Of a DNA stretch of 11,938 nucleotides, positions 1 through 11,938 are shown one piece after another. Source of the stretch: a virus (taxonomy: Duplodnaviria; Heunggongvirae; Uroviricota; Caudoviricetes); the IMG/VR virus record IMGVR_UViG_2695420382_000004. One strand, given 5' to 3'. The notes under the pieces are model-generated. The model was not told where the DNA came from and searched no databases. It was given only the letters and a program-made list of their open reading frames with translations. The first letter of the stretch is position 1. Each line of letters opens with the position of its first letter. The position numbers and the translations under genes are program-made.

Positions 1-2184
1 CTGAAAATAGCCCGGCGTCAGCTCAATCCGCGACAGCGCTGCCGGTGCGGCAATCCGGAACGATACCGACGCCGGATCGCCCTGCTGCCCCCACGCATTT
101 ACTGCCCGGACTGTCAGCCTGTAGTTCCCCAGCGCCAGTTGTGTGAAGCGGTAAGTGGTTTCCGTCGTCCGGGCCGTGCTGACCAGCCGCTCACTGCCGT
201 CATCCGCTGTTACGGTCAGACGGAGCAGGAAGCTCACGCCCTTCACCACCTTCGGCGTGTCCCAGCGCGCCAGCACCTGATATTCCCCGCTGTCTGCGGT
301 GACTTCGGCAGTCAGGTGCTGCACCGCTGGCGGCGTGACACCATTCACCGTGCCGCTCTGGTCGCCGTCAAAGTGCGCCCCGTTATCCACGATGGCTTCT
401 TTTTCCGGCACATGCTGCACGGCGGTGATGGCATACGTGCCGTCGTCGTTCTCACGGATACTCACGCAGCGGAACAATCGCTGGTGCAGCGTCGGCAGCT
501 TCAGCCCCCACACGCTGTATTCAGCAACACCGTCAGGAACACGGCTCACTTTTACCTTCACGCCGTCGGTGACGGACTGGACCTCCACGCTGACCGGATT
601 CCCCTGCCCGTCAACCAGGCTTATCAGCGTGGTGCCGGAGGATGGCAGCGTGATTTCACGGTCGAGCGTCAGCGTCCGGGTCTGGCTGTTCACCGCCAGC
701 ACGCGCCCGCCGGTGCGGATACCGGCATAGTCATCATCGCAGATTTCAATGACATCGCCCGGTACATGACGAAGCCCTTCAGCACCCACGCTGAAATCCA
801 CGGTCTGCGTCTCCAGCAGTTCCGTTTTAATCAGCCACAGCCCGGCGCGGTGTGCCTGCCCCCGGCTGGTACAGCCAAAGGCATCCATCTTCGTGACGTT
901 ACGACCGTAACGGACAATGGCCTGCGTATCCTCCACAAGCTCTGTCGCCGTCTCCCAGCCGTTATCCGGGTCAATCCAGTTCACCTCAACGGCATTATGG
1001 CGGTCTTTCAGGGCGCTGAAACTGTAGCGGAACGGCGCGCCATCATCCGGCATCACCACATTACTGCGGTTATAGGCCCACACCTTATCCGACTGTCGGT
1101 CCTGCACGAACGTCAGCGTCTGCCCGTTCCATACCGGCATACAGCGCATCGCCGAGCAGAAATCACTGAGCACATCCCACGCCTTGCGCTGTGTGGTCAG
1201 CCAGGCATTACAGGTGATGCGCGGCTCCGTGCTGCCAAAGCCGTCCGGCACCGACTGGTCACAGTACTGGCCGATGACATACAGCGCCCATTTATCCACA
1301 TCTGCCGCACCAAGACGTTTCCCCATGCCATAGCGCGGATGGGTCAGCATATCCCACAGACACCAGGCCATGTTGTTGCTGTATGCCGGTTTTAACGTTC
1401 CGTCCCAGATACCGCTGTATTGCCGCGTCTGCGGATTATAGTTCGACGGCACCTGCAGAATGCGCCCGCGAAGATGATAATTACGGCTCACCTGCTGGCT
1501 GCCGAACTGCTCCGAATCCACCTGTACGCCGACCAGTGCCGTGTTCGGGTAGCACTGTTTCACATCGATGATTTCGGTGTATGACGACCAGAGCGTTTTG
1601 TTCTGCAGCTGGTCTGTGGTGCTGTCCGGCGTCATTCTGCGCATCCGGATATTAAACGGGCGCGGCGGCAGGTTATCCACCACCACCGAGGCCAGATACT
1701 GCGAGGTGGTTTTGCCCTTAATGGTGATGTCTTTTTCCGTCACCCAGCCACCGTTACGCTGTATCTGAACCAGCAGGCGAACTTCAGACGGATTCCTGTC
1801 TCCCTTTGAGGTGGTTTCCACCAGTGCCTGTACACCGAAGGTAAAACGCAGTCGGTCAATGTTTGCCGACGTGATGGTCCGGGTGATCGGCGTGTCATAT
1901 TTCACTTCCGTACCCAGCACCGTCTCGGAGCCGGAGGATTCAAATCCCTCCGGCGGTGACTGCTCCTGCTCACCTGCCCGGAACACCACCGTGACGCCGG
2001 AGATGTTGGTATTCCCCTCACTGTCCAGCACCGGCGTACTGTTCAGCAGCACGCTTTTTAATCCATCCACCGGACCTTCAACCGGCCCTTCGCTGATGGC
2101 ATCGATCACACTCAGCAGCTGCGTGGACTTCAGGTTGTCCTTCGCTTCGCGCGGGGTATGCCCCTTACTGCTGCCTTTACCCAT
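1..2184 (-). CDS. J: Tail tip host-specificity protein J (central tail fibre), N-terminal 728 codons; 3' end lies beyond the window start
   Basis: ATG at 2184..2182 on minus strand; my translation reads MGKGSSKGHTPREAKDNLKSTQLLSVIDAISEGPVEGPVDG... and, at the window edge (60..1), ...FRIAAPAALSRIELTPGYFQ, colinear with lambda gpJ as recalled. Open to position 1, so absent from the ORF track. About 60 bp gap after I, as in lambda. Confidence 0.93.
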   Translation of the reverse strand, partial: MGKGSSKGHTPREAKDNLKSTQLLSVIDAISEGPVEGPVDGLKSVLLNSTPVLDSEGNTNISGVTVVFRAGEQEQSPPEGFESSGSETVLGTEVKYDTPITRTITSANIDRLRFTFGVQALVETTSKGDRNPSEVRLLVQIQRNGGWVTEKDITIKGKTTSQYLASVVVDNLPPRPFNIRMRRMTPDSTTDQLQNKTLWSSYTEIIDVKQCYPNTALVGVQVDSEQFGSQQVSRNYHLRGRILQVPSNYNPQTRQYSGIWDGTLKPAYSNNMAWCLWDMLTHPRYGMGKRLGAADVDKWALYVIGQYCDQSVPDGFGSTEPRITCNAWLTTQRKAWDVLSDFCSAMRCMPVWNGQTLTFVQDRQSDKVWAYNRSNVVMPDDGAPFRYSFSALKDRHNAVEVNWIDPDNGWETATELVEDTQAIVRYGRNVTKMDAFGCTSRGQAHRAGLWLIKTELLETQTVDFSVGAEGLRHVPGDVIEICDDDYAGIRTGGRVLAVNSQTRTLTLDREITLPSSGTTLISLVDGQGNPVSVEVQSVTDGVKVKVSRVPDGVAEYSVWGLKLPTLHQRLFRCVSIRENDDGTYAITAVQHVPEKEAIVDNGAHFDGDQSGTVNGVTPPAVQHLTAEVTADSGEYQVLARWDTPKVVKGVSFLLRLTVTADDGSERLVSTARTTETTYRFTQLALGNYRLTVRAVNAWGQQGDPASVSFRIAAPAALSRIELTPGYFQ

Positions 2185-2244
2185 TCGTCATGCTCCATAA
2201 ACGATAAAACCGCCCGGAGGCGATTTCACATAAAACATTTTGCA

Positions 2245-2916
2245 TCAGCGACCAATCACCACAACCTGACCACCGTCCCCTTCGTCTGCCGTGCTGATCT
2301 CCTGAGATACCACACGTGACCCCACGCGCATTTCACCATACAGAACAGGCATAACATTGCCCTGGGCAACCATGTTATCCAGTGAGGAGAAATAGGTGTT
2401 CTGCTTACCGTTATCCGTTGTCTGTGTGCGGGGAGTTCTGGCTTTCGGTGCCAGCATCTGAGCCACACCGCCGAGCACCATACTGGCACCGAGAGAAAAC
2501 AGAATGCCGGTCATACCACCGGCACCAATGGCAGCCCCCCATGCTGCAAGGGTGGCTCCGGCGGTAAAGAATGATCCGGCAATGGCGGCTGCTCCCAGGA
2601 CAATCTGGAATACACCACCTGACTTGGCCCCGGCGACTCTGGGAACAATATGAATCACAGCGCCGTCAGGCAGAGCCTCATGTAACTGCGCCGTTAATCC
2701 GGACGTGCTAACATCCTGCCCGGCAATACGCACCTGATACCAGCCGTCGCTCAGCTTCTGACGAAACGCAGGGAGCTGTGTGGCCATCGCCCGGATGGCT
2801 TCGGCACCCGTTTTCACACGAAGGTCGATGCGGCGGCCAAATCGTTGCAAATCCCCGTAAAGGCAGATGCGTGCCATGCCCGGTGACGCCAGAGGGAGTG
2901 TGTGCGTCGCTGCCAT
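2245..2916 (-). CDS. I: Tail assembly protein I (223 aa); C-terminal Gly/Ala-rich hydrophobic segment
   Basis: 223-aa ORF colinear with lambda gpI as recalled; its 5' end overlaps the 3' end of K by 103 nt in another frame, the same overlap length I recall for lambda K/I. Confidence 0.9.
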   Translation of the reverse strand: MAATHTLPLASPGMARICLYGDLQRFGRRIDLRVKTGAEAIRAMATQLPAFRQKLSDGWYQVRIAGQDVSTSGLTAQLHEALPDGAVIHIVPRVAGAKSGGVFQIVLGAAAIAGSFFTAGATLAAWGAAIGAGGMTGILFSLGASMVLGGVAQMLAPKARTPRTQTTDNGKQNTYFSSLDNMVAQGNVMPVLYGEMRVGSRVVSQEISTADEGDGGQVVVIGR

Positions 2917-3557
2917 TTGTCGGTATACCTCTCTCGTTTGCTCAGTTGTTCAGGAATATGGTGCAGCAGCTCGCCGTCACCACAGTAAATGGCGGCATGA
3001 TTCGGCACCGATGAACCAAAACAGCACAGCAGCACATCGCCCGGCTGCGCCGCTGACAACGGCACCTGATACAGCCCTGTGGCCTCCAGATTATCCAGAT
3101 AGAGATTCTGACCGTGACGCCACCAGTCATCCTCACGATGAAAATCCGGCATCTCAATCCCCGCCAGATGGTAAGCATCCCGGAACAGCGTGTAACAGTC
3201 CGTCACCCCGTGCTCAAAGCGCCGCCCGGTAAGATGTGGCACACAGCGGAACTTGTGAATCGCCCCCCGGCAGACCAGCCACCACGGCAAATCACTCTGC
3301 ACCTGCAGCCGCCGGTCGGCCTCACTCAGCCAGGGCAGACCACCGGGGTGGCTGTGGACCAGTGCCACAATCTCACCCTGCATCTCTGCCTGCAGCCAGT
3401 CTTCCGGCGACATACGGAAATACGCCTCCGGCTCACCGGAGATATTCACGCAGGGGAAATATCTTTCCCCCTCCGGCGTTCTTACCACGAAGCCGCACGA
3501 CTCCGCTGGAGCACATCGCCGGGCGTGCGCCAGAATCGCTGATTCTGTCTCTGTCAT
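2814..3557 (-). CDS. K: Tail assembly protein K, copy 1 (247-aa form; the 199-aa lambda annotation corresponds to internal Met49); JAMM/MPN+ motif plus NlpC/P60-like region
   Basis: Starts MTETESAILAHARRCAPAESCGFV..., colinear with lambda gpK as recalled. Codons 68-81 (3315..3356) read HSHPGGLPWLSEAD, fitting HxHx7Sx2D. Starts 5 nt after the L stop. Confidence 0.9.
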   Translation of the reverse strand: MTETESAILAHARRCAPAESCGFVVRTPEGERYFPCVNISGEPEAYFRMSPEDWLQAEMQGEIVALVHSHPGGLPWLSEADRRLQVQSDLPWWLVCRGAIHKFRCVPHLTGRRFEHGVTDCYTLFRDAYHLAGIEMPDFHREDDWWRHGQNLYLDNLEATGLYQVPLSAAQPGDVLLCCFGSSVPNHAAIYCGDGELLHHIPEQLSKRERYTDKWQRRTHSLWRHRAWHASAFTGICNDLAAASTFV

Positions 3558-3562
3558 GGGAT

Positions 3563-4261
3563 TTACTGCGAAAGTTTGTTAATGGAAAGGAAGCCGCCAA
3601 AGTTGCCGACGTTATTGCGAAACTTACAGCCACTCAGGCATTTGCTGCATTTATCCTTCGTGATGTCGGACGTTGGCTGGTCATATTCATCCGCGACCGC
3701 CGGACCGTGATAACCGCACTCATCGCCGCGATAGGTCCAGGTGCAGGTGTTGGCCAGCATGATACGTCCCGGAAAAACAGCGCCATCTGTTTCCGTCGGC
3801 GTGGACAGTACAAAAGAGGCACTCACCGCGCTCAGTTCGCTGCACTGCTCAATGCGCCAGCGGCTGATCACCTCCTGCTCCGGATCGGCGTCACTGTTTC
3901 CGTTGACGAAGTTCACCGCATCCAGAAAACGGGCGTAAACCTTACGCCGGACCACCGTTCCGCCGACCAGACTCTGTAGATCTTCCGCCATCCCGGTGAC
4001 CATACCGTACAGGTTAGAAACCATCAGCGTGGGGCGCGTACTGGTGCCTTTGCCATTCAGTTCAAAACCACTCCCCTGAATGGGATACGGCTGATACTGT
4101 CGCCCCTGCCAGGTGACCGGCTCACCTTTTTCGTTCTGCTCATTACAGAAAAAATAACGTTCTCCACCGACCTCTGTCAGATCGATTTCCCAGAGCACCA
4201 CGCTGGCCGACTGCTCCGCACGGGTGCATTCATTCAGTGTTTCCTGCCGGATATCCTGCAT
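3563..4261 (-). CDS. L: Minor tail protein L, copy 1 (232 aa), C-terminal Cys cluster
   Basis: 232-aa ORF starting MQDIRQETLNE..., length and sequence match lambda gpL as recalled; C-terminal cysteines (...RGDECGYHGP...DKCSKCLSGC...). Start ATG overlaps the M stop by 1 nt (TGATG). Confidence 0.92.
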   Translation of the reverse strand: MQDIRQETLNECTRAEQSASVVLWEIDLTEVGGERYFFCNEQNEKGEPVTWQGRQYQPYPIQGSGFELNGKGTSTRPTLMVSNLYGMVTGMAEDLQSLVGGTVVRRKVYARFLDAVNFVNGNSDADPEQEVISRWRIEQCSELSAVSASFVLSTPTETDGAVFPGRIMLANTCTWTYRGDECGYHGPAVADEYDQPTSDITKDKCSKCLSGCKFRNNVGNFGGFLSINKLSQ

Positions 4262-4590
4262 CAGTTCACCACCTGTTCAAACTCTGCGCTGAACTCAACA
4301 CGCAGCATACTGACCCGCGACGACCATTTTGCGCAGGTCACCTTTATCTGCCGCCACTCATAAGGCGGCGTCCACAGAAAGGCTTTCCAGCCCCCGTGCT
4401 CTTCCAGAAACGACTCCAGTACCATGGCCTCCTCACGGGGGACAGAAAGCGTCACGCTGTACGTTTTCAGGTTGGCATTCAGCCCGGCAGGCGCTCGCTG
4501 GGAATAGCCATCACCAAAGCGCACCTTTCTTACAGAAGGGGCCGAAGCCACATCCATACCGGGTTTCACTTTCCAGCGGAAGGTTTTCAT
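4261..4590 (-). CDS. M: Minor tail protein M, copy 1 (109 aa)
   Basis: 109-aa ORF MKTFRWKVKPGMDV..., same length as lambda gpM and colinear with it as recalled; ATGA start/stop overlap with the upstream H-type reading frame. Confidence 0.92.
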   Translation of the reverse strand: MKTFRWKVKPGMDVASAPSVRKVRFGDGYSQRAPAGLNANLKTYSVTLSVPREEAMVLESFLEEHGGWKAFLWTPPYEWRQIKVTCAKWSSRVSMLRVEFSAEFEQVVN

Positions 4591-4907
4591 CGTCCACCTC
4601 CGGAGAACAGGCCACCATCACGCATCTGTGTCTGAATTTCATCACGGGCACCCTTGCGGGCCATGTCATACACGGCCTTCATCATCTGTGGACCTGGCAG
4701 ACCATTCGTACCGTCGTTCTGAATCACCACGTGATTGTTCTGATTAAAATTAATGCCTTCAGCCCGCCGCATCTGCGCCGGACTTCCGGCACCGCCCACA
4801 TAACCACCTTCCGCATAGCCGCGCATCAGCCGGTAGAGATTCCCCACGCCAATCCGGCTGGTTGCCTCCTTCGTGAAGACAAATTCACCACGGTGAACAA
4901 TCCCCGC
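4587..4907 (-). pseudogene. H: Tape measure protein H, C-terminal fragment only (last 106 codons plus stop); no N-terminus or start
   Basis: Reads AGIVHRGEFVFTKEATSRIGVGNLYRLMRGYAEGGYVG...ARDEIQTQMRDGGLFSGGGR*, colinear with the lambda gpH C-terminus as recalled. Homology begins immediately beside the 'n' at 4909; upstream of it the frame reads K-gene antisense junk. Confidence 0.85.
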
Positions 4908-4908
4908 T

Positions 4909-4909
4909 N
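4909..4909. other. Single ambiguous base marking an abrupt junction between K-internal sequence (copy 2) and H-internal sequence; probable contig or scaffold join
   Basis: Literal 'n' in the sequence. K copy-2 homology (...CCFGASVP) stops on one side and H C-terminal homology starts on the other, within about 2 nt. Confidence 0.7.
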
Positions 4910-4911
4910 TT

Positions 4912-5466
4912 CGGTACCGAAGCACCAAAGCAGCACAGCAGAATATCGCCCGCCTGTGCAGAGGACAGGGGCACCCGGTAAAAGCCGGTGACCGCCATAT
5001 TGTCCAGGTAAAGGTTCTGACCGTTGCGCCACCAGTCATCCTCGCGATGAAAATCCGGCATTTCAGTCCCCGCCAGATGATAAGCATCCCGGAACAGCGT
5101 GTAACAGTCCGTCACCCCGTGCTCAAAGCGCCGTCCTGTCAGATGTGGCACACAGCGGAATTTGTGAATGTCACCCCGGCAGACCAACCACCAGGGCAGT
5201 GCGCTTTTTATCTGCAACCGCCGGTCAGCCTCGCTCAGCCAGGGCAGCCCACCGGGATGACTGTGGACCAGTGCCACAATCTCCCCCTGCATCTCTGCCC
5301 GCAGCCAGTCTTCCGGTGCGATACGAAAATACGCCTCCGGCTCTGCGGAAATATTCACACAAGGGATATACCGCTCCCCCTCCGGCGTGCTTATCACGAA
5401 GCCGCACGACTCCGCAGGCGCACACCGCCGGGCATGTGCCAGAATCGCTGATTCAGTCTGTGTCAT
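4912..5466 (-). pseudogene. K: Tail assembly protein K, copy 2, truncated after about 185 codons (lacks the C-terminal ~60 aa including the NlpC/P60-like His region)
   Basis: ATG at 5466..5464, MTQTESAILAHARRCAPAESCGFVISTPEGERY...HSHPGGLPWLSEAD...LLCCFGASVP, then the 'n'. The JAMM motif is retained; the tail corresponding to copy 1 ...NHAAIYCGDGELLHHIPEQ... is missing. Confidence 0.85.
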
Positions 5467-5476
5467 AAACCGGGAT

Positions 5477-6175
5477 TTACTGCGAAAGTTTATTAATGGA
5501 AAGGAAACCGCCAAAATTGCCGACATTCCTGCGCAGTTCACACCCGCGCATGCACTTGCTGCATCTGTCCTTACGGATATCCGTGGTGGGGTTGTCGAAC
5601 TCATCCGCCACCGCAGGACCGTTATACCCGCATTCATCTCCCCGGTAATCCCACATACAGGTGTTCGCCAGCATGATGCGACCGGGAAACAGCGCCCCGT
5701 CCGTCTCGGTCGGTGTAGCCAGCACAAACGAGGCCGTCATGGCTGTCAGCTGCGACATCTGCTCCACCACCCAGCGGTCACTCAGCTCCTGCTCCGGGTC
5801 CGCCTCCGGATTGCCCGCAACGAAATTCACCGCATCCAGAAAACGGGCATACACCCGGCGGCGGACCACCGTGGCCCCCACCAGACTCTGCAGGTCTTCC
5901 GCCATCCCGGTGACCAGACCGAACAGATTGGACACCGTCAGCGACGGTCTGGCACTGCTGCCCCGGCCGTTCATCTCAAAGCCGCTGCCGTCAATCGGGT
6001 ATGCCTCATACTTACGCCCCTGCCAGGTGACCGGCTCCCCTTTTTCATTCAGCTCATTACAGAAAAAATACCGCTCACCACCCTGTACCGTCAGGTCGAT
6101 TTCCCAGAGTACCACCCGCGGTGACTGCTCTGACTTAACCGACTCGTTCAGACTTTCTTCGCGAATATCCTGCAT
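5477..6175 (-). CDS. L: Minor tail protein L, copy 2 (232 aa), C-terminal Cys cluster
   Basis: 232-aa ORF MQDIREESLNESVKSEQSPRVVLWEIDLT..., colinear with copy 1 and lambda gpL but clearly divergent from copy 1; cysteines conserved (...RGDECGYNGP...DRCSKCMRGC...). Confidence 0.92.
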   Translation of the reverse strand: MQDIREESLNESVKSEQSPRVVLWEIDLTVQGGERYFFCNELNEKGEPVTWQGRKYEAYPIDGSGFEMNGRGSSARPSLTVSNLFGLVTGMAEDLQSLVGATVVRRRVYARFLDAVNFVAGNPEADPEQELSDRWVVEQMSQLTAMTASFVLATPTETDGALFPGRIMLANTCMWDYRGDECGYNGPAVADEFDNPTTDIRKDRCSKCMRGCELRRNVGNFGGFLSINKLSQ

Positions 6176-6504
6176 CAGTTCACCACCTGCTTAAACTCCG
6201 CGCTGAACTCAACGCGCAACATCCCGACCCGCGCAGACCACCCGGCACAGGTCACCTTTATCTGCCGGTATGCATAGGGTGGCTTCCACAAAAATGCCTT
6301 CCAGCCACCGTGCTCTGCCAGGAACGCTTCCAGATGCCGGGCCTCCTCCCGGGTCACGGAAAGCGTCACCCTGTATGTTTTCAGGTCAGCATTCAGCCCT
6401 GCCGCCATACGCTGTGAGTACCCGTCACCAAAACGCACTTCACGCACCGATGGCTGCGAGTTCACCTCCATATCCGGCTTCACTTTCCAGCGAAAGGTTT
6501 TCAT
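6175..6504 (-). CDS. M: Minor tail protein M, copy 2 (109 aa)
   Basis: 109-aa ORF MKTFRWKVKPDMEV...; about 21 of 109 residues differ from copy 1 by my hand count; ATGA overlap with the H stop. Confidence 0.92.
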   Translation of the reverse strand: MKTFRWKVKPDMEVNSQPSVREVRFGDGYSQRMAAGLNADLKTYRVTLSVTREEARHLEAFLAEHGGWKAFLWKPPYAYRQIKVTCAGWSARVGMLRVEFSAEFKQVVN

Positions 6505-9222
6505 CCACCGCTCCCTGATAACATACCGCCATCACGCAACTGCAGCCGGAGTTCATCCTGTGCCCCCTTGCGGGCCATCTCATACACCGCTTTCATCAGC
6601 TGCGGCCCTGCCCGCCCGTTGGGGCCGTCGTTCTGAATCACCACGTGATTGTTCTGATTAAAATTAATGCCTTCAGCCCGCCGCATCTGCGCCGGACTTC
6701 CGGCACCGCCCACATAACCACCTTCCGCNNNNNNNNNNNNNNNNNNNNNNNNNNNNNNNNNNNNNNNNNNNNNNNNNGTTCTGAATCACCACGTGATTGT
6801 TCTGATTAAAATTAATGCCTTCCGCCCGCCGCATCTGCGCCGGACTTCCGGCACCGCCGACATAACCACCTTCCGCATAGCCCCGCATCAGGCGGTACAG
6901 ATTGCCGACACCAATCCGGCTGGTCGCCTCCTTCGTGAAGACAAACTCCCCGCGATGAACAATCCCCGCAGGTTCATATTTACCCCCCGTCCCCGTAAAT
7001 CCCCCGGTCGCGAAATGGAAGTTCGCCGCCGCAGCCTGAATGGCCGTCCCCGTGGAGGCAGACGCACCACCACCGAAAGCACCGCCAATGGCGCTGCCGA
7101 TACTCCCGACTATCCCCACCATCGCCTGCTTCAGAAAAATCTCTGTCAGCATGGACAGCACAGAACGGGTGAAACCACGCCAGTTCTGTTCGCTGCCGAT
7201 CAGCATCGCTGCCATATTCTGTGCAATACCGTCAAAGGTCTGCGTGGCCGCGTTTTTAACCTGCGAAAAACTGTCCGTCGCACTTTCCGCCCACTCGCCC
7301 CAGCCGGACTTCATCCCGGCCATCCAGCTTCCACGAAGCTGCTCCTCCGCAGACCAGGTGTTCTTCAGTGCAGATGTGGCCTTCGCCAGCGCAGCCGGAT
7401 TATCACCGTACACCTCACGAAGGCGCTGCTCTTCCGACTCCCGCTGCGCCTGACGGTCGGTGAGTCCGCGGGCTTTTGCGCTGATTGCCGCCTGCTTCGC
7501 GCTCTGCTGCTGTTCAAACCGCGCCGCCTGCTGTGCCAGCTCATTCAGCCGTTTCTGGTGTTCAATCTTGTCGCCCAGCTCAGCCAGCTGGCGTTTGTAC
7601 TCCAGCGTTTCTTTCTCATGGGCCAGCAGGGATTTTTCCTGCTCAGATAACTGCCGTTTCGTGGCGGCCTCTTTCAGGACCACATACTGATTTTCCGCTT
7701 TCCATAAATCACGGCGCTGCTGGCTGATTTTTTCATTCGCACCGCTGTGCTTCTCCAGCGTCCTGAGCTCAGTTTCAAGCGCCAGCAGGGCTGCATGCGC
7801 CTGGTCTTCCTGGCGCTCACCGGCAGACACCTTCACACCGGACGGCTTTTTCTGCGTCGACTCATAATCCTTTTTTGCCGACGCCATCAGCGTGTTGTAA
7901 TCCGCCTGCAGGATTTTCCCGTCTTTCAGGGCCTTATTCAGCTCTTCCTGCCGGGCGGTATATTTCTCCAGTGGCGTCAGCAGGCGCTCATACGCCTTCT
8001 GCGCCTCTCCGGTATACTTCAGCTGTGACGACTCACGCTCAGCCCTGTCCCTTGCCGCCAGTTCACCGGCTTTTTCCATATCCGACTGCAGCGTTGCCGC
8101 TGCCAGACCCAGACGGGCATTTTCCCGGTCATCCCATGCGCCCTGAAGGTTGGCCCGGAAAGAGGAGGTTTTACCGCGGCGCTGGCTCCGACTCTGGTAC
8201 CACTGCCATTTTTTATCCGCCTCATCAAATGCCTTCTGCGCACTGGCGAGCATATCCGCTGAGGATTCCGGACGACCGATATCCAGAATGGCATCCCACA
8301 TCGATTTGAATGCCTTCCCTGTTTTATCCGCCCAGGTCTCCAGTGTTCCCATGTTTTCTTTCAGGCGACGGGTCTGCTCATCAAAGCCTTTCGTGGCGAT
8401 ATCGTTCGCCGCCTGCAATGCCCCGGCCTCGTCTCCGGAACGCTGCAGCTGTGCAACATACGCAATCTGCTCTGCCGTCACGTTACGGAACTGGCGCGCC
8501 ATCGCCATCAGTCCCGACGTCGGGTCAGTGGTCAGCTTCCCGAAGGCTTCAGCGACTTTATCCACCTCCACACCGGATGCAGACGCAAAACGCGCGACAC
8601 TCTGGTTGATGGCATCAAACTGTTCACCACCACGCACACCGGCATTCACCAGGGCTGCCAGTGACTCTCTCGCCTGGTTAAACGTCAGCCCTGCTGCCTG
8701 CCCGGCTCTTGAGAGAGTCAGCATACGATCGGCAGTCAGTCCGGACTGATTACCGGAAAGAACCAGGGTTTTATTAAACGCTGAAAGCGTGGAATCTCCC
8801 TGGTACCAGGCGTACACCAGTGCACCTGTCGCCACCGCCAGCGAGGTGACCCCGACCATCGGCAGGGTGATCGCATCGGCAAGCCCCCTGAACATGGGGA
8901 TCATCCCGCCGAAGGAGTCCTTCACCTGACCGCCCTGTTGCAGCAGGATCAGCCAGGGATTCTGACCACCGGCAAGCTGCGTGGCGATATCCGTAAACTG
9001 TGCGGGCAGGGTTCGCATGGCCGCTTTATACTGCCCGACGGAAATCCCGGCTTTTTGTGCAGCCAGCGCCTGGCGGCTCAGGCCCTGTTCAACAGCACTG
9101 GCGGTTTTTCTGGCGTCGGTATCCAGACCTGAAAAATGACGCCTTACCCGGCTCATCTGCTCATCGAAACGGACAGCATCCAGACTCAGGTCAATAACAA
9201 GATCACCAACCGGCTGGGACAT
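6501..9222 (-). CDS. H: Tail tape measure protein H, interrupted by an N-run and a duplicated 99-bp flank; about 857 aa once the duplication is collapsed
   Basis: Starts MSQPVGDLVIDLSLDAVRFDEQMSRVRRHFSG..., colinear with lambda gpH (853 aa) throughout as recalled. The 70-aa ORF 6501..6713 is its C-terminus (…DGPNG…MLSGSGG*). Arithmetic: 2722 nt minus 49 N minus 99 repeated nt = 2574 = 3 x 858, in frame. Confidence 0.9.
6630..6876. repeat. 99-bp direct repeat (6630..6728 and 6778..6876, 2 mismatches) flanking the N-run; a third copy lies at 4716..4814
   Basis: Read directly: gttctgaatcaccacgtgattgttctgattaaaattaatgccttc[a/c]gcccgccgcatctgcgccggacttccggcaccgcc[c/g]acataaccaccttccgc. The pre-gap copy is identical to 4716..4814; the post-gap copy differs at 2 positions. 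Confidence 0.9.
6729..6777. other. Assembly gap (49 N) inside the H coding sequence
   Basis: Run of n characters; the ORF-track translation shows X's followed by a frame change. Confidence 0.95.
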
Positions 9223-9667
9223 ATCTCACACCTCCCGGAATCCCCGCTGAAGCCATCATTAATGCGGCATCATCCACCATGACATCCGCCACATCCGCAG
9301 ACGATAAAATATCGCGCCCTCCGTCCCCACCGAACCGGACGCCTCCGGCAAGTCCTGCCGCTTTCTGCATCAGCATTTTGTCCTCATCCGGCCTCTCCAC
9401 CTGCTCTTCCTCATGCCGGGGGACAAGCAGACTGAAATCAGAGGGATGCATATCCGGATCGCAAAAAAACAGGCTGAGTACAGCGTACGTCAGCCCGGAA
9501 AAATGCATATCCAGCTGGGTATCCTGAAAATAATGCGTGCGGTAAAAACGGTGCCAGTCGGCATATTCGGTGGATGTCATCCCGGCAAGCATGGCGCGCC
9601 AGTCGGGTCTCCCCATCTCACGCGCCAGTCTGAGGGCAAAGTTCAGCTCGCCGTCGAAGACTTTCCC
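9203..9667 (-). CDS. T: T-frame portion of the gpG-T tail assembly chaperone fusion, reached by -1 frameshift from G; not an independent gene
   Basis: ORF in the -1 frame relative to G (9643-9203 = 440, 440 mod 3 = 2) running from the slippery site to a stop at 9203; genomic position between G and H as in lambda. The in-frame Met at 9616 is probably not used. Confidence 0.8.
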   Translation of the reverse strand, partial: GKVFDGELNFALRLAREMGRPDWRAMLAGMTSTEYADWHRFYRTHYFQDTQLDMHFSGLTYAVLSLFFCDPDMHPSDFSLLVPRHEEEQVERPDEDKMLMQKAAGLAGGVRFGGDGGRDILSSADVADVMVDDAALMMASAGIPGGVRYVPAGW

Positions 9668-10074
9668 GCAGAAAAATCATCATCAGTCAGCGTGTTATTT
9701 TTCGCCACTTCAGTAATATCAGTATCCGGACGAACAGCTTCGATCATCCCGGACAGGCACAACACCACGTCTTCCGCCCGGGCAATGGCATCGGCAGGCC
9801 AGGTGGTGAGCACTTCCTGCTCTATCTTCATCACGGCCTCATTCATTGACGGTGACTGCGTTTTCTGTGGATGGTTATGCCACAGGGACATCGCCACCAG
9901 AAACGCGCCGGTTCTGACGAGATCTTCCACGCTTACCTGCAGGTTGCCGCTGGATTCTGCCTGTTCTGCACGCCGTTTCAGGAGGGCAAGATGCTCGATA
10001 CGCTGCAGCGCAGACAATTCGGAAAGCGTGACAGACACACCGTTATATTCAAATTGTTCTGTTTTCAGAAACAT
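9643..10074 (-). CDS. G: Tail assembly chaperone G (143 aa)
   Basis: MFLKTEQFEYNGVSVTLSELSALQRIEHLALLKRRAEQAES..., colinear with lambda gpG as recalled; GGAGG Shine-Dalgarno 5-9 nt upstream of the ATG (minus-strand acGGAGGtaatacATG). Confidence 0.93.
   Translation of the reverse strand: MFLKTEQFEYNGVSVTLSELSALQRIEHLALLKRRAEQAESSGNLQVSVEDLVRTGAFLVAMSLWHNHPQKTQSPSMNEAVMKIEQEVLTTWPADAIARAEDVVLCLSGMIEAVRPDTDITEVAKNNTLTDDDFSAGKSSTAS
9661..9667 (-). other. Programmed -1 ribosomal frameshift slippery heptamer G GGA AAG (G frame) / GGG AAA G (T frame)
   Basis: Plus strand 9661..9667 is ctttccc, so minus strand is GGGAAAG. The G frame reads GCG GGA AAG (…SAGK…), 6 codons before the G stop; established lambda G-T mechanism. 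Confidence 0.85.
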
Positions 10075-10087
10075 GTATTACCTCCGT

Positions 10088-10840
10088 TTACCCTGCAGCG
10101 CCCGCTTCAGTAACGGTGACTTCAGCCACTGCGGCGAACTGACCATTTCCGCTCACCACAGGGATCTGCACCTTACCTGTCGCCACGCCGTTTACCGTAA
10201 TTGTCATATCTTTCACACTAATGGTGGCTTTCGACGGATCGGCGGAAACCGCTCTGAACGTCTTGTCGGTTGCACTTTCCGGCTCAAAAGAAACCGTCAG
10301 GGTGGTTGTTTTCCCTTTTGCCACCGTACCGGATGTCGGCGTCACCTTAATCGCACTGACCGGCGTAATTTTGCTGCGTTCTTCCGCTACAGAAGGTTTA
10401 CCCACGTTAGTGACTTTCACCGTGCGGGTGATCACTTCTTTCGCCGTCACGGCCTTACCGATACTGCTGACCCAGCCACGAAACACATCCACCGTGCCAT
10501 TCGGAAAACGGATTTTATAGGCCCGGACATCGCCGCTTTCAAACCAGCCTATAAGCCCTTTCTGGCCTTCCTCTCCCGGTTTCCAGGCCAGCGTAAAACT
10601 GGTATCACCTGCAGATTTCTGCCCCTGCCCGGTCGCGCTCCAGTCCGCGTCTTCATCATCCAGGTAGTTATCATCATAGGATTCAGCCGTCATCTCGCCC
10701 GGCGTCAGATCCTTCACCTTAGCCAGTCGCTGCCAGTCATCGTCTGACAACGGGTTTGCATAAGCATCAGCCTTGCCGTTGTAAACCCACAGAGTGGTAC
10801 CGGCACCTTTTACCGGCTCCAGGGGATTTGGTGTTGCCAT
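10088..10840 (-). CDS. V: Major tail tube protein V (250 aa) with C-terminal Ig-like region
   Basis: [42 protein letters not shown]..., colinear with lambda gpV as recalled; the C-terminal roughly 90 aa are Thr/Val/Ser-rich (…[12 protein letters not shown]…[22 protein letters not shown]…), typical of a Big_2-like domain. Confidence 0.93.
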
Positions 10841-10847
10841 ATCGTCC

Positions 10848-11243
10848 TCACATCTCGTATGTAATGGAATAAGTCAGATCCGCAGAGCTCCATAACGCCA
10901 TATCGTCATCACGACGATACTCATAGCCCTGCGTAACCATCGTGGTAATCAGTCCTGCCAGTGCAGGGATCGCAGTCATCGCCGGATAAATCCGGCTTTC
11001 CATCCACTGATCGAGCTCCGAATCAGGTACCTGTGCCGGTAAAAACACCTCAATATGCAGTGTGGCCCGCCAGGTATCTGCATCCAGCTCTTCACCGGTA
11101 TACTCTGCATCCGTCAGATAAACCGCGATCGCAGGAAAATCCTCTTCGTCAAAAACAACGGGGCGACCATCAAACAGCGTCGCCCCGTGTTCATGCTGCT
11201 CGAGTGCATCCAGCACTGCGGCACGAATGTCAGTGTGTTTCAT
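10848..11243 (-). CDS. U: Tail tube terminator protein U (131 aa)
   Basis: [44 protein letters not shown]...LTYSITYEM, same length as lambda gpU and colinear with it as recalled. Confidence 0.93.
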
Positions 11244-11815
11244 CGTTTTATCGCAATCCTCAGTTGTTGTTTCAGCGCGTATGCCAGTTCTTTAGGCAGG
11301 CGTTCACGCCGGATACGGTCAACATTCTCATCAAATGCCTGTTTCAGTGGGGCCGCCATCGGGATTTTCACCACCTGAATGGGAAGGCGATTACGCTTTT
11401 TCCTTCCCTTGTCGTCATTGCCCTCCTCATATCTGGCCTGGGGAAGACGTTGCATAACATGCCAGCGCCCATTATTTAATCGCTGGATAAATGCCCGCTG
11501 ATAACGATGCTGACCGGCTTTGAGTATGCTGTTCGGACGACGCCCCAGCATTCTGATCCCCAGCTTAATCACAGGGAGATCACCGCGGTTAACGATAATT
11601 CTGGCATTCGGATTTCTGACCGTCGCCCGTTTCAGTCTGGACCGTTCCTTTACCAGTTTCCGTCTCACCCTGGTTTCCCGGGCAACCTGTGACGAAGACT
11701 GATTAATCGCCGTTGTGGCCACGCGGTTAATGGTCATTGCAGAAGCAGCCGGAATGGCGTTTTTACGAACCCGGCTCAGATTGTCAATCGCCTGATCAAG
11801 CCCTTTTATCGCCAT
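11240..11815 (-). CDS. Z: Tail completion protein Z (191 aa)
   Basis: MAIKGLDQAIDNLSRVRKNAIPAASAMTINRVATTAINQSSSQVARETRVRRKLVKER...RIAIKR, colinear with lambda gpZ as recalled; ATGA overlap with the U start. Confidence 0.92.
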   Translation of the reverse strand: MAIKGLDQAIDNLSRVRKNAIPAASAMTINRVATTAINQSSSQVARETRVRRKLVKERSRLKRATVRNPNARIIVNRGDLPVIKLGIRMLGRRPNSILKAGQHRYQRAFIQRLNNGRWHVMQRLPQARYEEGNDDKGRKKRNRLPIQVVKIPMAAPLKQAFDENVDRIRRERLPKELAYALKQQLRIAIKR

Positions 11816-11829
11816 AATTCACCCTGCGT

Positions 11830-11938
11830 TTATCGTCGCCGGTTAACTGCGGGTGGTTGCCCACGGTTGAGCCAGAGATAACAGCTGCCCCCGTCATCCG
11901 GAGATGTCAGCGCCAGTGATATAAGACGGTAATTCGCC
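11830..11938 (-). CDS. FII: Head-tail joining protein FII, C-terminal 35 codons plus stop; 5' end beyond the window
   Basis: Hand translation of the minus strand gives ANYRLISLALTSPDDGGSCYLWLNRGQPPAVNRRR*, matching the lambda gpFII C-terminus (...SPDDGGSCHLWLGRGVPPAVNRRR) as recalled; 14-nt spacer before the Z ATG. Confidence 0.8.
   Translation of the reverse strand, partial: ANYRLISLALTSPDDGGSCYLWLNRGQPPAVNRRR

What the first reader, a model, noticed from the sequence alone, without database searches (positions are those of the whole stretch)
4716..4814. A roughly 100-bp patch is identical between the two H 3' ends while the flanks diverge, suggesting a recombination and assembly-break hotspot
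4716..4814 equals 6630..6728 base for base, with a few more shared bases upstream. Sequence immediately 3' of it in the gene (4587..4710 vs 6501..6624) is clearly divergent, and the 5' side (4815..4907 vs 6877..6970) differs at roughly a dozen positions. Such islands of identity within otherwise diverged homologues are the classic signature of lambdoid mosaicism, and are exactly where short-read assemblers break. It explains why all three putative contig ends fall in the H 3' region.
Basis: seen in the sequence. Interest (0 to 1): 0.4.

Follow-up and report, generated by a model that had tools for sequence, protein, structure and literature searches.

The report
Conserved tape-measure patch at scaffold gaps
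The identical ~100-base patch is real, but it is an ordinary short mosaic segment near the end of the lambda-like tail tape-measure gene H; it appears three times here because a draft scaffold strung contigs of two different prophages together and wrote one locus on both sides of a gap.

Summary
Observation confirmed. 4711-4814 equals 6625-6728 exactly (104 nt). Blocks A and B are otherwise 80.7% identical, and 0 of 20,000 column shuffles gave a run that long.

The window is a scaffold of three contigs:
- A = 1-4908
- a single N at 4909
- B = 4910-6728
- 49 N at 6729-6777
- C = 6778-11938

The right edge of the exact identity is the end of contig B. In closed genomes B and C are one continuous prophage and overlap by exactly these 99 nt. 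Copies 2 and 3 are therefore the same locus written twice around a false gap. Merging them restores an intact 2,574-nt H gene.

The A|B joint (H 3' end fused to mid-K) is found in 0 of 5,426 closed E. coli genomes, so the "second M-L-K segment" is a scaffolding artefact.

The patch itself is a natural mosaic unit. It covers gpH codons 779-811 and has two alleles: lambda differs from block A at 42% of patch positions but only about 2% just upstream. Closed genomes contain recombinants that switch parent inside it. Independent assemblies also break in or near it.

The parts
1..4908 (-). Contig/block A. Tail-tip end of a lambda-like prophage ('type A'): J' (1-2184, 5' part), I (2245-2817), K (2814-3557), L (3563-4261), M (4261-4590), H' (4587-4908, last 322 nt only).
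   Evidence: Colinear and gap-free with L003 (AP027748) 6001-10908 at 97.2%, where these genes are annotated. Pfam hits for M, L, K and I. Sister scaffold L009 1-4908 differs by 1 SNP and continues uninterrupted into a type-A H gene.
4909..4909 (.). Single N: a scaffold joint between the H 3' end of contig A (offset +192) and the middle of K in contig B. Chimeric join.
   Evidence: A 140-nt query spanning the joint without the N is covered at 80% or more in 0 of 5,426 closed genomes, although each half occurs at 100% (>=99% identity in 1,861 records). Single-N joints in related IMG/VR scaffolds L009, L050 and L051 also link non-adjacent pieces of different prophage types.
4910..6728 (-). Contig/block B. 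Piece of a second prophage ('type BC'): K' (4910-5466, 5' 557 nt), L (5477-6175), M (6175-6504), H' (6501-6728, last 228 nt).
   Evidence: 99.6% identical over its full length to closed genomes such as ST648 (L001 6001-7819), in a normal H-M-L-K context.
4711..4814 (-). Copy 1 of the patch, in type-A H' (gpH codons about 779-813). Alleles A at offset 45 and C at offset 81.
   Evidence: Codon numbering from the alignment to lambda H.
6625..6728 (-). Copy 2 of the patch: the 3' tip of contig B, identical to copy 1. Its last base is the last base before the N run.
   Evidence: It carries the block-A alleles at both variable sites. The B-left plus A-allele combination is at 100% in only 2 closed genomes, against 571 records in the 95-99% band, whose listed members all carry 2 mismatches.
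6729..6777 (.). 49-N scaffold gap. It is false: the flanking contigs overlap by 99 nt instead of being separated.
   Evidence: B and C map to overlapping coordinates in L001 (7391-7819 and 7721-8243), L002, L006, L007, L008, L009 and L011.
6778..6876 (-). Copy 3 of the patch: the first 99 nt of contig C. It is the same locus as copy 2 and carries the common C-type alleles (C at offset 45, G at offset 81).
   Evidence: Identical to L001, L002 and L006. 14 IMG/VR loci carry B-left + (C,G) + a right flank 100% identical to block C.
6778..11938 (-). Contig/block C. Tail-shaft part of the type-BC prophage: H without its last 129 nt (6778-9222), T (9203-9616), G (9643-10074), V (10088-10840), U (10848-11243), Z (11240-11815), and the start of a head-tail joining gene (11830-11938).
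   Evidence: 99.2% identical to closed genomes. Coordinates transferred from the L001 annotation. Pfam TMP_2 and Tape_meas_lam_C hits in H. Joining 6501-6629 to 6778-9222 gives an intact 2,574-nt H, the same length as L001 H, with 6 aa differences.

Best explanation
Two things are superimposed.

**1. Biology.** The patch encodes gpH residues about 779-811. This lies in the C-terminal fragment of the lambda-type tape measure protein, just upstream of the helix (818-849) that sits on the gpI tripod in the tail tip. The patch behaves as a short exchangeable mosaic segment:
- Most E. coli lambdoid prophages share one allele at 91-100% identity, whatever their flanks look like.
- Lambda itself carries a different allele, 58% identical.
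- On the M-proximal side, a sharp module boundary lies 43 codons before the H stop. Beyond it the H tail, M and L form a divergent block.
- On the other side lies about 500 nt of protein-conserved H sequence.
- Homologous recombination between co-infecting or co-resident lambdoid phages uses these identical stretches for crossovers. That both spreads the patch and reassorts the shaft and tip modules.

**2. Assembly.** The source genome carries at least two lambdoid prophages, type A and type BC, that share this stretch. A short-read assembler broke there. A scaffolder then laid contigs A, B and C in a row. B and C are true neighbours that overlap by the 99 nt, so the patch is written on both sides of a false 49-N gap. 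A belongs to the other prophage and is joined to B by a single N. The perfect identity of copies 1 and 2 most likely arises because the tip of contig B was built from type-A reads or k-mers beyond the 50-nt run that both prophages share.

**Shown:** contig structure, overlap, absence of the joint, mosaic pattern, natural recombinants.
**Inferred:** the recombination mechanism, the structural rationale, and the origin of the two alleles at the tip of B.
For: **Assembly**
- N positions.
- B and C are contiguous with a 99-nt overlap in seven independent sequences.
- The merged H is intact and of normal length.
- The A|B joint is absent from 5,426 closed genomes.
- Closed genomes span 9.8 kb where the window has 11.9 kb.
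- Sister scaffold L009 has blocks A and C with 1-2 SNPs each, no break at 4908, B and C contiguous, and its own single-N chimeric joint elsewhere.
- The tip of contig B has type-A alleles, whereas B-left + (C,G) + C-right is a common natural haplotype.
- Other assemblies break nearby. metaSPAdes contigs L058 and L059 end at +49, so their last 55-mer begins at the first shared base. L011 ends at +176 and L056 at +303.

**Biology**
- L001 vs L003 identity is 74% left of offset -6, 98% at -5..94, 88-93% out to +494, then 65-77%.
- Lambda vs L003 or block A is 98-99% in M, 58% in the patch, and 95-100% upstream of it.
- L007/L008 are L001-like except for offsets -5 to about +450, which are L003-like.
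- Haplotypes (A,C), (A,G) and (C,G) combine with different right flanks.
- The patch differs in amino acids between the two alleles, so its identity among A, B and C is shared ancestry rather than strong constraint.
- gpH 818-849 binds gpI, and residues about 690-817 are unresolved (PMC10721106, PMC12617516).
- Short mosaics flanked by lower-identity 'HR traces' are the described pattern for lambdoid phages, with a Red-beta minimum of about 30 bp (PMC3945230).
Against: - No reads or coverage are available, so the number of prophage copies in the source genome and the true alleles at offsets 45 and 81 cannot be fixed.
- The sister assembly L009 shows a third combination, (A,G), contiguous with C-right. 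The tip of contig C (C at offset 45) could therefore be the wrong one, or a third prophage could exist.
- B-left + (A,C) does occur in closed genomes (TUM13773 and 20AR0479), so the tip of contig B could be genuine.
- The contig ends (offsets 0, 98, 192) do not fit a simple two-copy de Bruijn graph at any single standard k. The assembler and scaffolder remain unidentified.
- Between L001 and L003 the patch is only modestly more similar than its right flank: 3 of 37 codons changed against 16 of 65.
Confidence: 0.85

Rival explanations
1. In-vivo gene conversion between the two co-resident prophages made the type-BC patch identical to the type-A patch. On this reading the tip of contig B is correct, and the exact repeat of 104 nt or more is what broke the assembly. 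The (C,G) tip of contig C would then come from a third prophage or from an error.
For: - B-left + (A,C) exists in closed genomes.
- Sister assembly L009, which also carries type A, has the A allele at offset 45 in its BC prophage. 14 IMG/VR loci with the same flanks have C there.
- The other 1,720 nt of contig B differ from L001 at only 5 sites (one search gives 99.6% overall), against 2 differences in the last 99 nt.
Against: - Contig C covers the same 99 nt with the other alleles and matches the common natural haplotype exactly.
- A third copy must be assumed.
- The two closed genomes with B-left + (A,C) are only 97.5% identical to B and have a different right flank.
Confidence: 0.22
2. A real tandem segmental duplication of H'-M-L-K within one prophage, with the Ns being merely unsequenced bases.
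For: Same orientation and order of the two M-L-K segments. The sister scaffold also places type-A and type-BC pieces next to each other.
Against: - The joint is absent from 5,426 closed genomes.
- The two segments are only 81% identical and each matches a different natural prophage at 97-99.6%.
- In L009 block A runs on into its own H gene with no break at 4908.
- Both joints are Ns.
- A 148-nt repeat would shift the H reading frame.
Confidence: 0.03
3. The patch is kept identical by a nucleotide-level function, such as a recombination hotspot sequence, a regulatory RNA or a binding site, rather than by exchange and protein constraint.
For: Only synonymous changes occur in the patch among the common-allele sequences, and there are fewer than in the right flank.
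Against: - No Chi site in the window.
- No Rfam family hit.
- The predicted fold is not unusual, z = -1.3.
- Lambda, PhiR26_1 and 4A7 carry a 58%-identical allele at the same place and are viable phages.
- Distant siphophages match offsets 75-237, not the patch proper.
Confidence: 0.03

Closest known systems
Lambdoid phage genome mosaicism by relaxed homologous recombination (De Paepe et al. 2014, PMC3945230; modular genome hypothesis)
   Same: A short, near-identical segment lies inside diverged homologues and is flanked by regions of intermediate identity ('HR traces'). Small gene fragments are exchanged more often than whole modules. Exchange occurs between temperate phages and resident prophages. 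Natural recombinants switch parent inside the identical stretch.
   Different: At about 95-110 nt the patch is shorter than the median mosaic reported there (404-494 bp). Only sequence comparison was done here; no recombination assay was run.
Lambda gpH tape measure protein, C-terminal fragment gpHC (PMC10721106, PMC12617516)
   Same: The gene carries TMP_2 and Tape_meas_lam_C domains and has lambda's length class (853-857 aa). The patch aligns to lambda codons 779-811, immediately before the gpI-bound helix 818-849.
   Different: The patch allele here differs from lambda's in about half of its residues. The function of residues 779-811 is unknown, and they are unresolved in the structures.
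Short-read assembly collapse or breakage and scaffold misjoins at paralogous prophage sequence (e.g. EHEC O157 prophages, PMC5359411); sequence duplicated on both sides of a scaffold gap
   Same: Contig ends lie inside sequence shared by several prophages. Ns sit at the joints. The same 99 nt appear on both sides of the gap. Contigs of two prophages are serialised as an apparent tandem duplication.
   Different: The two gap-flanking copies differ at 2 positions, so one tip is a hybrid of the two prophages. The assembler and scaffolder could not be identified.

Membership tests
Lambda-family tail tape measure gene H | TMP_2 (PF06791) and Tape_meas_lam_C (PF09718) domains; position between T and M in the Z-U-V-G-T-H-M-L-K-I-J order | tested here: met
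   Pfam E = 5e-69 and 5.6e-20 on 6778-9222. Gene order from annotated closed genomes. The patch aligns to lambda H codons 779-811.
Lambdoid mosaic segment (recombinational exchange unit) | Abrupt change of pairwise identity at discrete boundaries | tested here: met
   74% to 98% at offset -6/-5 for L001 vs L003. 95-100% to 58% and back to 88-99% for lambda vs L003 or block A at offsets 3 to 96.
Lambdoid mosaic segment (recombinational exchange unit) | History of the segment discordant with that of its flanks | tested here: met
   Patch identity is 0.91-1.00 among sequences whose M and H-tail are 0.69-0.80 identical. It is 0.58 between sequences whose flanks are 0.95-1.00 identical.
Lambdoid mosaic segment (recombinational exchange unit) | Recombinants with a crossover inside the segment exist in closed genomes | tested here: met
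   L007/L008 (TUM13773, 20AR0479) switch from L001-like to L003-like between offsets -6 and 45. (A,G) and (A,C) haplotypes occur with different right flanks.
Lambdoid mosaic segment (recombinational exchange unit) | Elevated crossover rate relative to neighbouring conserved sequence (a true 'hotspot') | not tested
   Only a handful of haplotypes were examined. No rate comparison with the adjacent 500-nt conserved block was made.
Scaffold misjoin or gap-flanking false duplication | Ns at the joints, and flanking sequences that overlap when placed on closed references | tested here: met
   Ns at 4909 and 6729-6777. 99-nt overlap of B and C on L001, L002, L006, L007, L008, L009 and L011. Merging restores an intact H.
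Scaffold misjoin or gap-flanking false duplication | The joint is not found in finished genomes | tested here: met
   0 of 5,426 genomes cover 80% or more of the A|B joint. Best whole-window matches span 9.8 kb, not 11.9 kb.
Scaffold misjoin or gap-flanking false duplication | Read or coverage evidence (no spanning reads, doubled coverage of collapsed parts) | not testable with these tools
   The source assembly was not found in genome contigs, viral contigs or metagenome contigs, and no reads are available.
Real tandem duplication of H'-M-L-K | A sequenced novel joint, with copies more alike than unrelated prophages are | tested here: not met
   The joint is an N and is absent elsewhere. The copies are 80.7% identical, and each is 97-99.6% identical to a different natural prophage.
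Chi or another sequence-specific recombination hotspot, or a structured RNA | Presence of the motif or a family match | tested here: not met
   No GCTGGTGG on either strand. No Rfam hit. Fold z = -1.3.

The most novel reading that the evidence does not exclude
gpH codons 779-811 form a discrete, freely exchangeable micro-cassette with at least two alleles (a lambda type and a common type) and its own recombination boundaries. It may be kept homogeneous among co-resident prophages by ongoing short-tract gene conversion. The block-A alleles seen in the BC prophage of this strain and of its sister would then be in-vivo conversion tracts of under 100 nt.
Probability: 0.2. Interest if true: 0.3.

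Novelty: already known. Interest (0 to 1): 0.12.

Why it matters
Its main value is as a caution. The apparent second M-L-K-H' set and the 849-aa 'H' ORF that reads through the gap are assembly products and should not be annotated or counted as gene duplications. Base calls at contig tips inside prophage repeats (here 6675, 6711 and 6823) are unreliable for SNP typing.

Biologically it gives one clean small example of the known lambdoid pattern. The boundary between the tail-shaft and tail-tip modules lies inside gene H, 43 codons before its end. It sits next to a roughly 95-nt exchangeable patch, just before the helix that docks on gpI. This does not open a new question.

Tried and rejected
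- **Source assembly.** A 45-mer scan of genome contigs, a junction pattern and a 70-mer in viral contigs, and the 70-mer in metagenome contigs did not find it. They found only a sister scaffold, L009.
- **Assembler k.** I tried to derive k from the contig ends. The 99-nt overlap suggests k of about 99-100. However, the two mismatches and the end positions (0, 98, 192) fit no simple two-copy de Bruijn model, so I dropped this as undeterminable.
- **Strong protein constraint as the cause of identity.** Rejected, because lambda's allele differs in about half of the residues.
- **Pfam domain on the patch.** None was found on the last 106 aa.
- **Chi site, Rfam family, RNA structure.** All negative.
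- **Masked real sequence.** I considered that the Ns mask real sequence, giving a 148-nt tandem repeat. Rejected because it would shift the H frame and because B and C overlap on every reference.

Full report
**1. What is in the sequence**

The repeat search confirms that 4716-4814 and 6630-6728 are identical. It also finds a third copy at 6778-6876 with 2 mismatches. The exact run is 104 nt: 4711-4814 = 6625-6728.

Blocks A and B are 80.7% identical overall, and the next longest exact run is 53 nt. In 20,000 column shuffles the longest run never exceeded 80. The patch is therefore not chance.

The window contains a single N at 4909 and 49 N at 6729-6777. It is a scaffold of three contigs:
- A = 1-4908
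- B = 4910-6728
- C = 6778-11938

The exact identity stops at the last base of contig B. The third copy is the first 99 nt of contig C.

**2. Gene content**

All genes are on the minus strand and follow the lambda tail order. Coordinates were transferred from annotated closed genomes and checked against Pfam.
- C = (head-tail joining gene)'-Z-U-V-G-T-H, with H lacking its last 129 nt.
- B = H' (last 228 nt)-M-L-K' (first 557 nt).
- A = H' (last 322 nt)-M-L-K-I-J'.

The listed 849-aa ORF at 6673..9222 reads through the N run and stops out of frame in block B.

**3. The arrangement is an assembly product**

- B is 99.6% and C is 99.2% identical to prophages in closed E. coli genomes.
- In those genomes (L001, L002), in E. 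albertii (L006), and in L007, L008, L009 and L011, B and C are one continuous sequence. Their ends overlap by exactly the 99 nt.
- Joining 6501-6629 to 6778-9222 gives an intact 2,574-nt H. That is the same length as in L001, with 6 amino-acid differences. The two variable sites are synonymous.
- The best whole-window matches in closed genomes span 9.8 kb, not 11.9 kb.
- A 140-nt query across the A|B joint with the N removed is covered at 80% or more in 0 of 5,426 genomes. Each half occurs at 100% identity, and 1,861 records match at >=99%.
- Block A best matches a different, lambda-like prophage type (97.2%).

A sister scaffold, IMGVR_UViG_2690316286_000003 (L009), has the same outer ends as the window. 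Its blocks A and C differ from the window by 1-2 SNPs each. In L009:
- block A runs straight on into its own H, T, G and V genes;
- a single N then joins it to mid-L of the BC prophage;
- the BC prophage runs through the patch without a break.

Single-N joints in two other IMG/VR isolate scaffolds (L050, L051) likewise connect non-adjacent pieces of different lambdoid types.

The three patch copies in the window therefore represent two loci. The 'second M-L-K-H' segment' is a contig of a second prophage placed in series.

**4. The two variable sites**

Offsets count from the first base of the 99-mer. The alleles at offsets 45 and 81 are:

| Sequence | Offset 45 | Offset 81 |
|---|---|---|
| Block A | A | C |
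| Tip of B | A | C |
| Tip of C | C | G |
| L009 BC prophage | A | G |

- In closed genomes, B-left with (A,C) is at 100% in 2 records. 571 records fall in the 95-99% band, and all the listed ones carry two mismatches.
- In IMG/VR, 14 loci have B-left + (C,G) + a right flank identical to block C.
- The most economical reading is that the tip of contig B was completed with type-A sequence beyond the 50-nt run shared by both prophages.
- A real short conversion tract, or a third prophage, cannot be excluded without reads.
- Either way, 'base for base identical' is not a safe biological statement. Natural relatives of B differ from A at one or two of the 99 positions.

**5. The patch as a biological object**

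Between L001 (BC type) and L003 (A type), identity changes along the region as follows:

| Offsets | Identity |
|---|---|
| Left of -6 | 74% |
| -5 to 94 | 98% |
| 95 to 494 | 88-93% |
| Beyond 494 | 65-77% |

Codon counts for the same pair:

| Segment | Codons differing | Nonsynonymous |
|---|---|---|
| H tail | 27 of 40 | 14 |
| Patch | 3 of 37 | 0 |
| Next 65 codons | 16 of 65 | 1 |

Aligned to lambda, the patch is codons 779-811 of gpH. Lambda, PhiR26_1 and 4A7 carry a different allele there. It is 58-60% identical in nucleotides, and about half of the residues differ. Lambda's flanks are nonetheless 95-100% identical to L003 and block A.

All other sampled sequences share the common allele at 91-100% identity, whatever their flanks look like. 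The patch therefore has discrete natural boundaries on both sides, at about offsets 3 and 96. Its history is discordant with both flanks.

Closed genomes TUM13773 and 20AR0479 (L007, L008) are L001-like except for offsets -5 to about +450, which are L003-like. One edge of that replacement lies inside the patch. Other haplotype and flank combinations exist.

No Chi site, Rfam family or unusual RNA fold is present. Distant siphophages match offsets 75-237 rather than the patch.

Published structures place gpH 818-849 as a coiled coil on the gpI tripod in the tip lumen. Residues about 690-817 are unresolved (PMC10721106, PMC12617516). By inference, the divergent last 40 residues travel with the tip genes M and L, with which they co-vary here. 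Also by inference, the patch is a tolerant linker just upstream.

A near-identical short segment flanked by intermediate identity is the pattern described for lambdoid mosaics made by relaxed homologous recombination (PMC3945230).

**6. Assembly-break hotspot**

Contig ends fall at these offsets from the patch start:
- the window's own ends: 0, +98 and +192;
- metaSPAdes contigs L058 and L059: +49, so their last 55-mer starts at the first base shared with the A type;
- L011: +176;
- L056: +303;
- pieces of L051: +386 and +686.

This agrees with the known inability of short reads to resolve paralogous prophage sequence (PMC5359411).

**7. Verdict**

However, the side-by-side duplication is a scaffolding artefact, one of the three copies is a duplicate of another, and the exact extent of the identity is set by a contig tip. 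The phenomenon belongs to well-known categories, so interest is low.

Noticed in passing
L005 (SFGJ01000115.1, 'MAG: Clostridiales bacterium W0P5.003', 2,291 nt): This contig of a Clostridiales metagenome bin is 94-97% identical to window blocks B and C, which are E. coli lambdoid H'-M-L sequence. It is most likely bin contamination.
   Followed up: partly
window 1 and 11938; L009 1 and 14124: Both outer ends of the window coincide to the base with the ends of sister scaffold IMGVR_UViG_2690316286_000003. The window is therefore probably a whole scaffold whose ends are set by the same repeats or pipeline. The last 34 nt (11905-11938) did not align to closed E. coli genomes.
   Followed up: partly
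window 6673-9222 (-), 4587-5087 (-), 4885-5727 (-): Three ORFs in the mechanical list run across N positions: the 849-aa 'H', a 166-aa ORF and a 280-aa ORF. They are artefacts of the scaffold joints. The 849-aa ORF ends out of frame inside block B.
   Followed up: yes
L050, L051 (IMGVR_UViG_2693429733_000004, 2695420744_000007): Other isolate-derived IMG/VR scaffolds contain several single-N joints. Each links non-adjacent pieces of different lambdoid prophage types, for example the L gene of one type to the Z gene of another. Chimeric 'prophages' of this kind appear to be systematic in that data source.
   Followed up: partly
window 3172-3224 vs 5081-5133 (gene K): A second, smaller identity island: a 53-nt exact run inside a stretch of about 120 nt at 93-95% identity between the two K copies. 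Contig B starts about 170 nt beyond it.
   Followed up: no
L006 (Escherichia albertii NBRC 107761, NZ_BBMY01000112.1): The E. albertii type strain carries the same BC-type prophage tail region at 96-98% identity. Its patch and flanks over offsets -140 to +360 are identical to E. coli L001, which shows cross-species sharing of this prophage.
   Followed up: no
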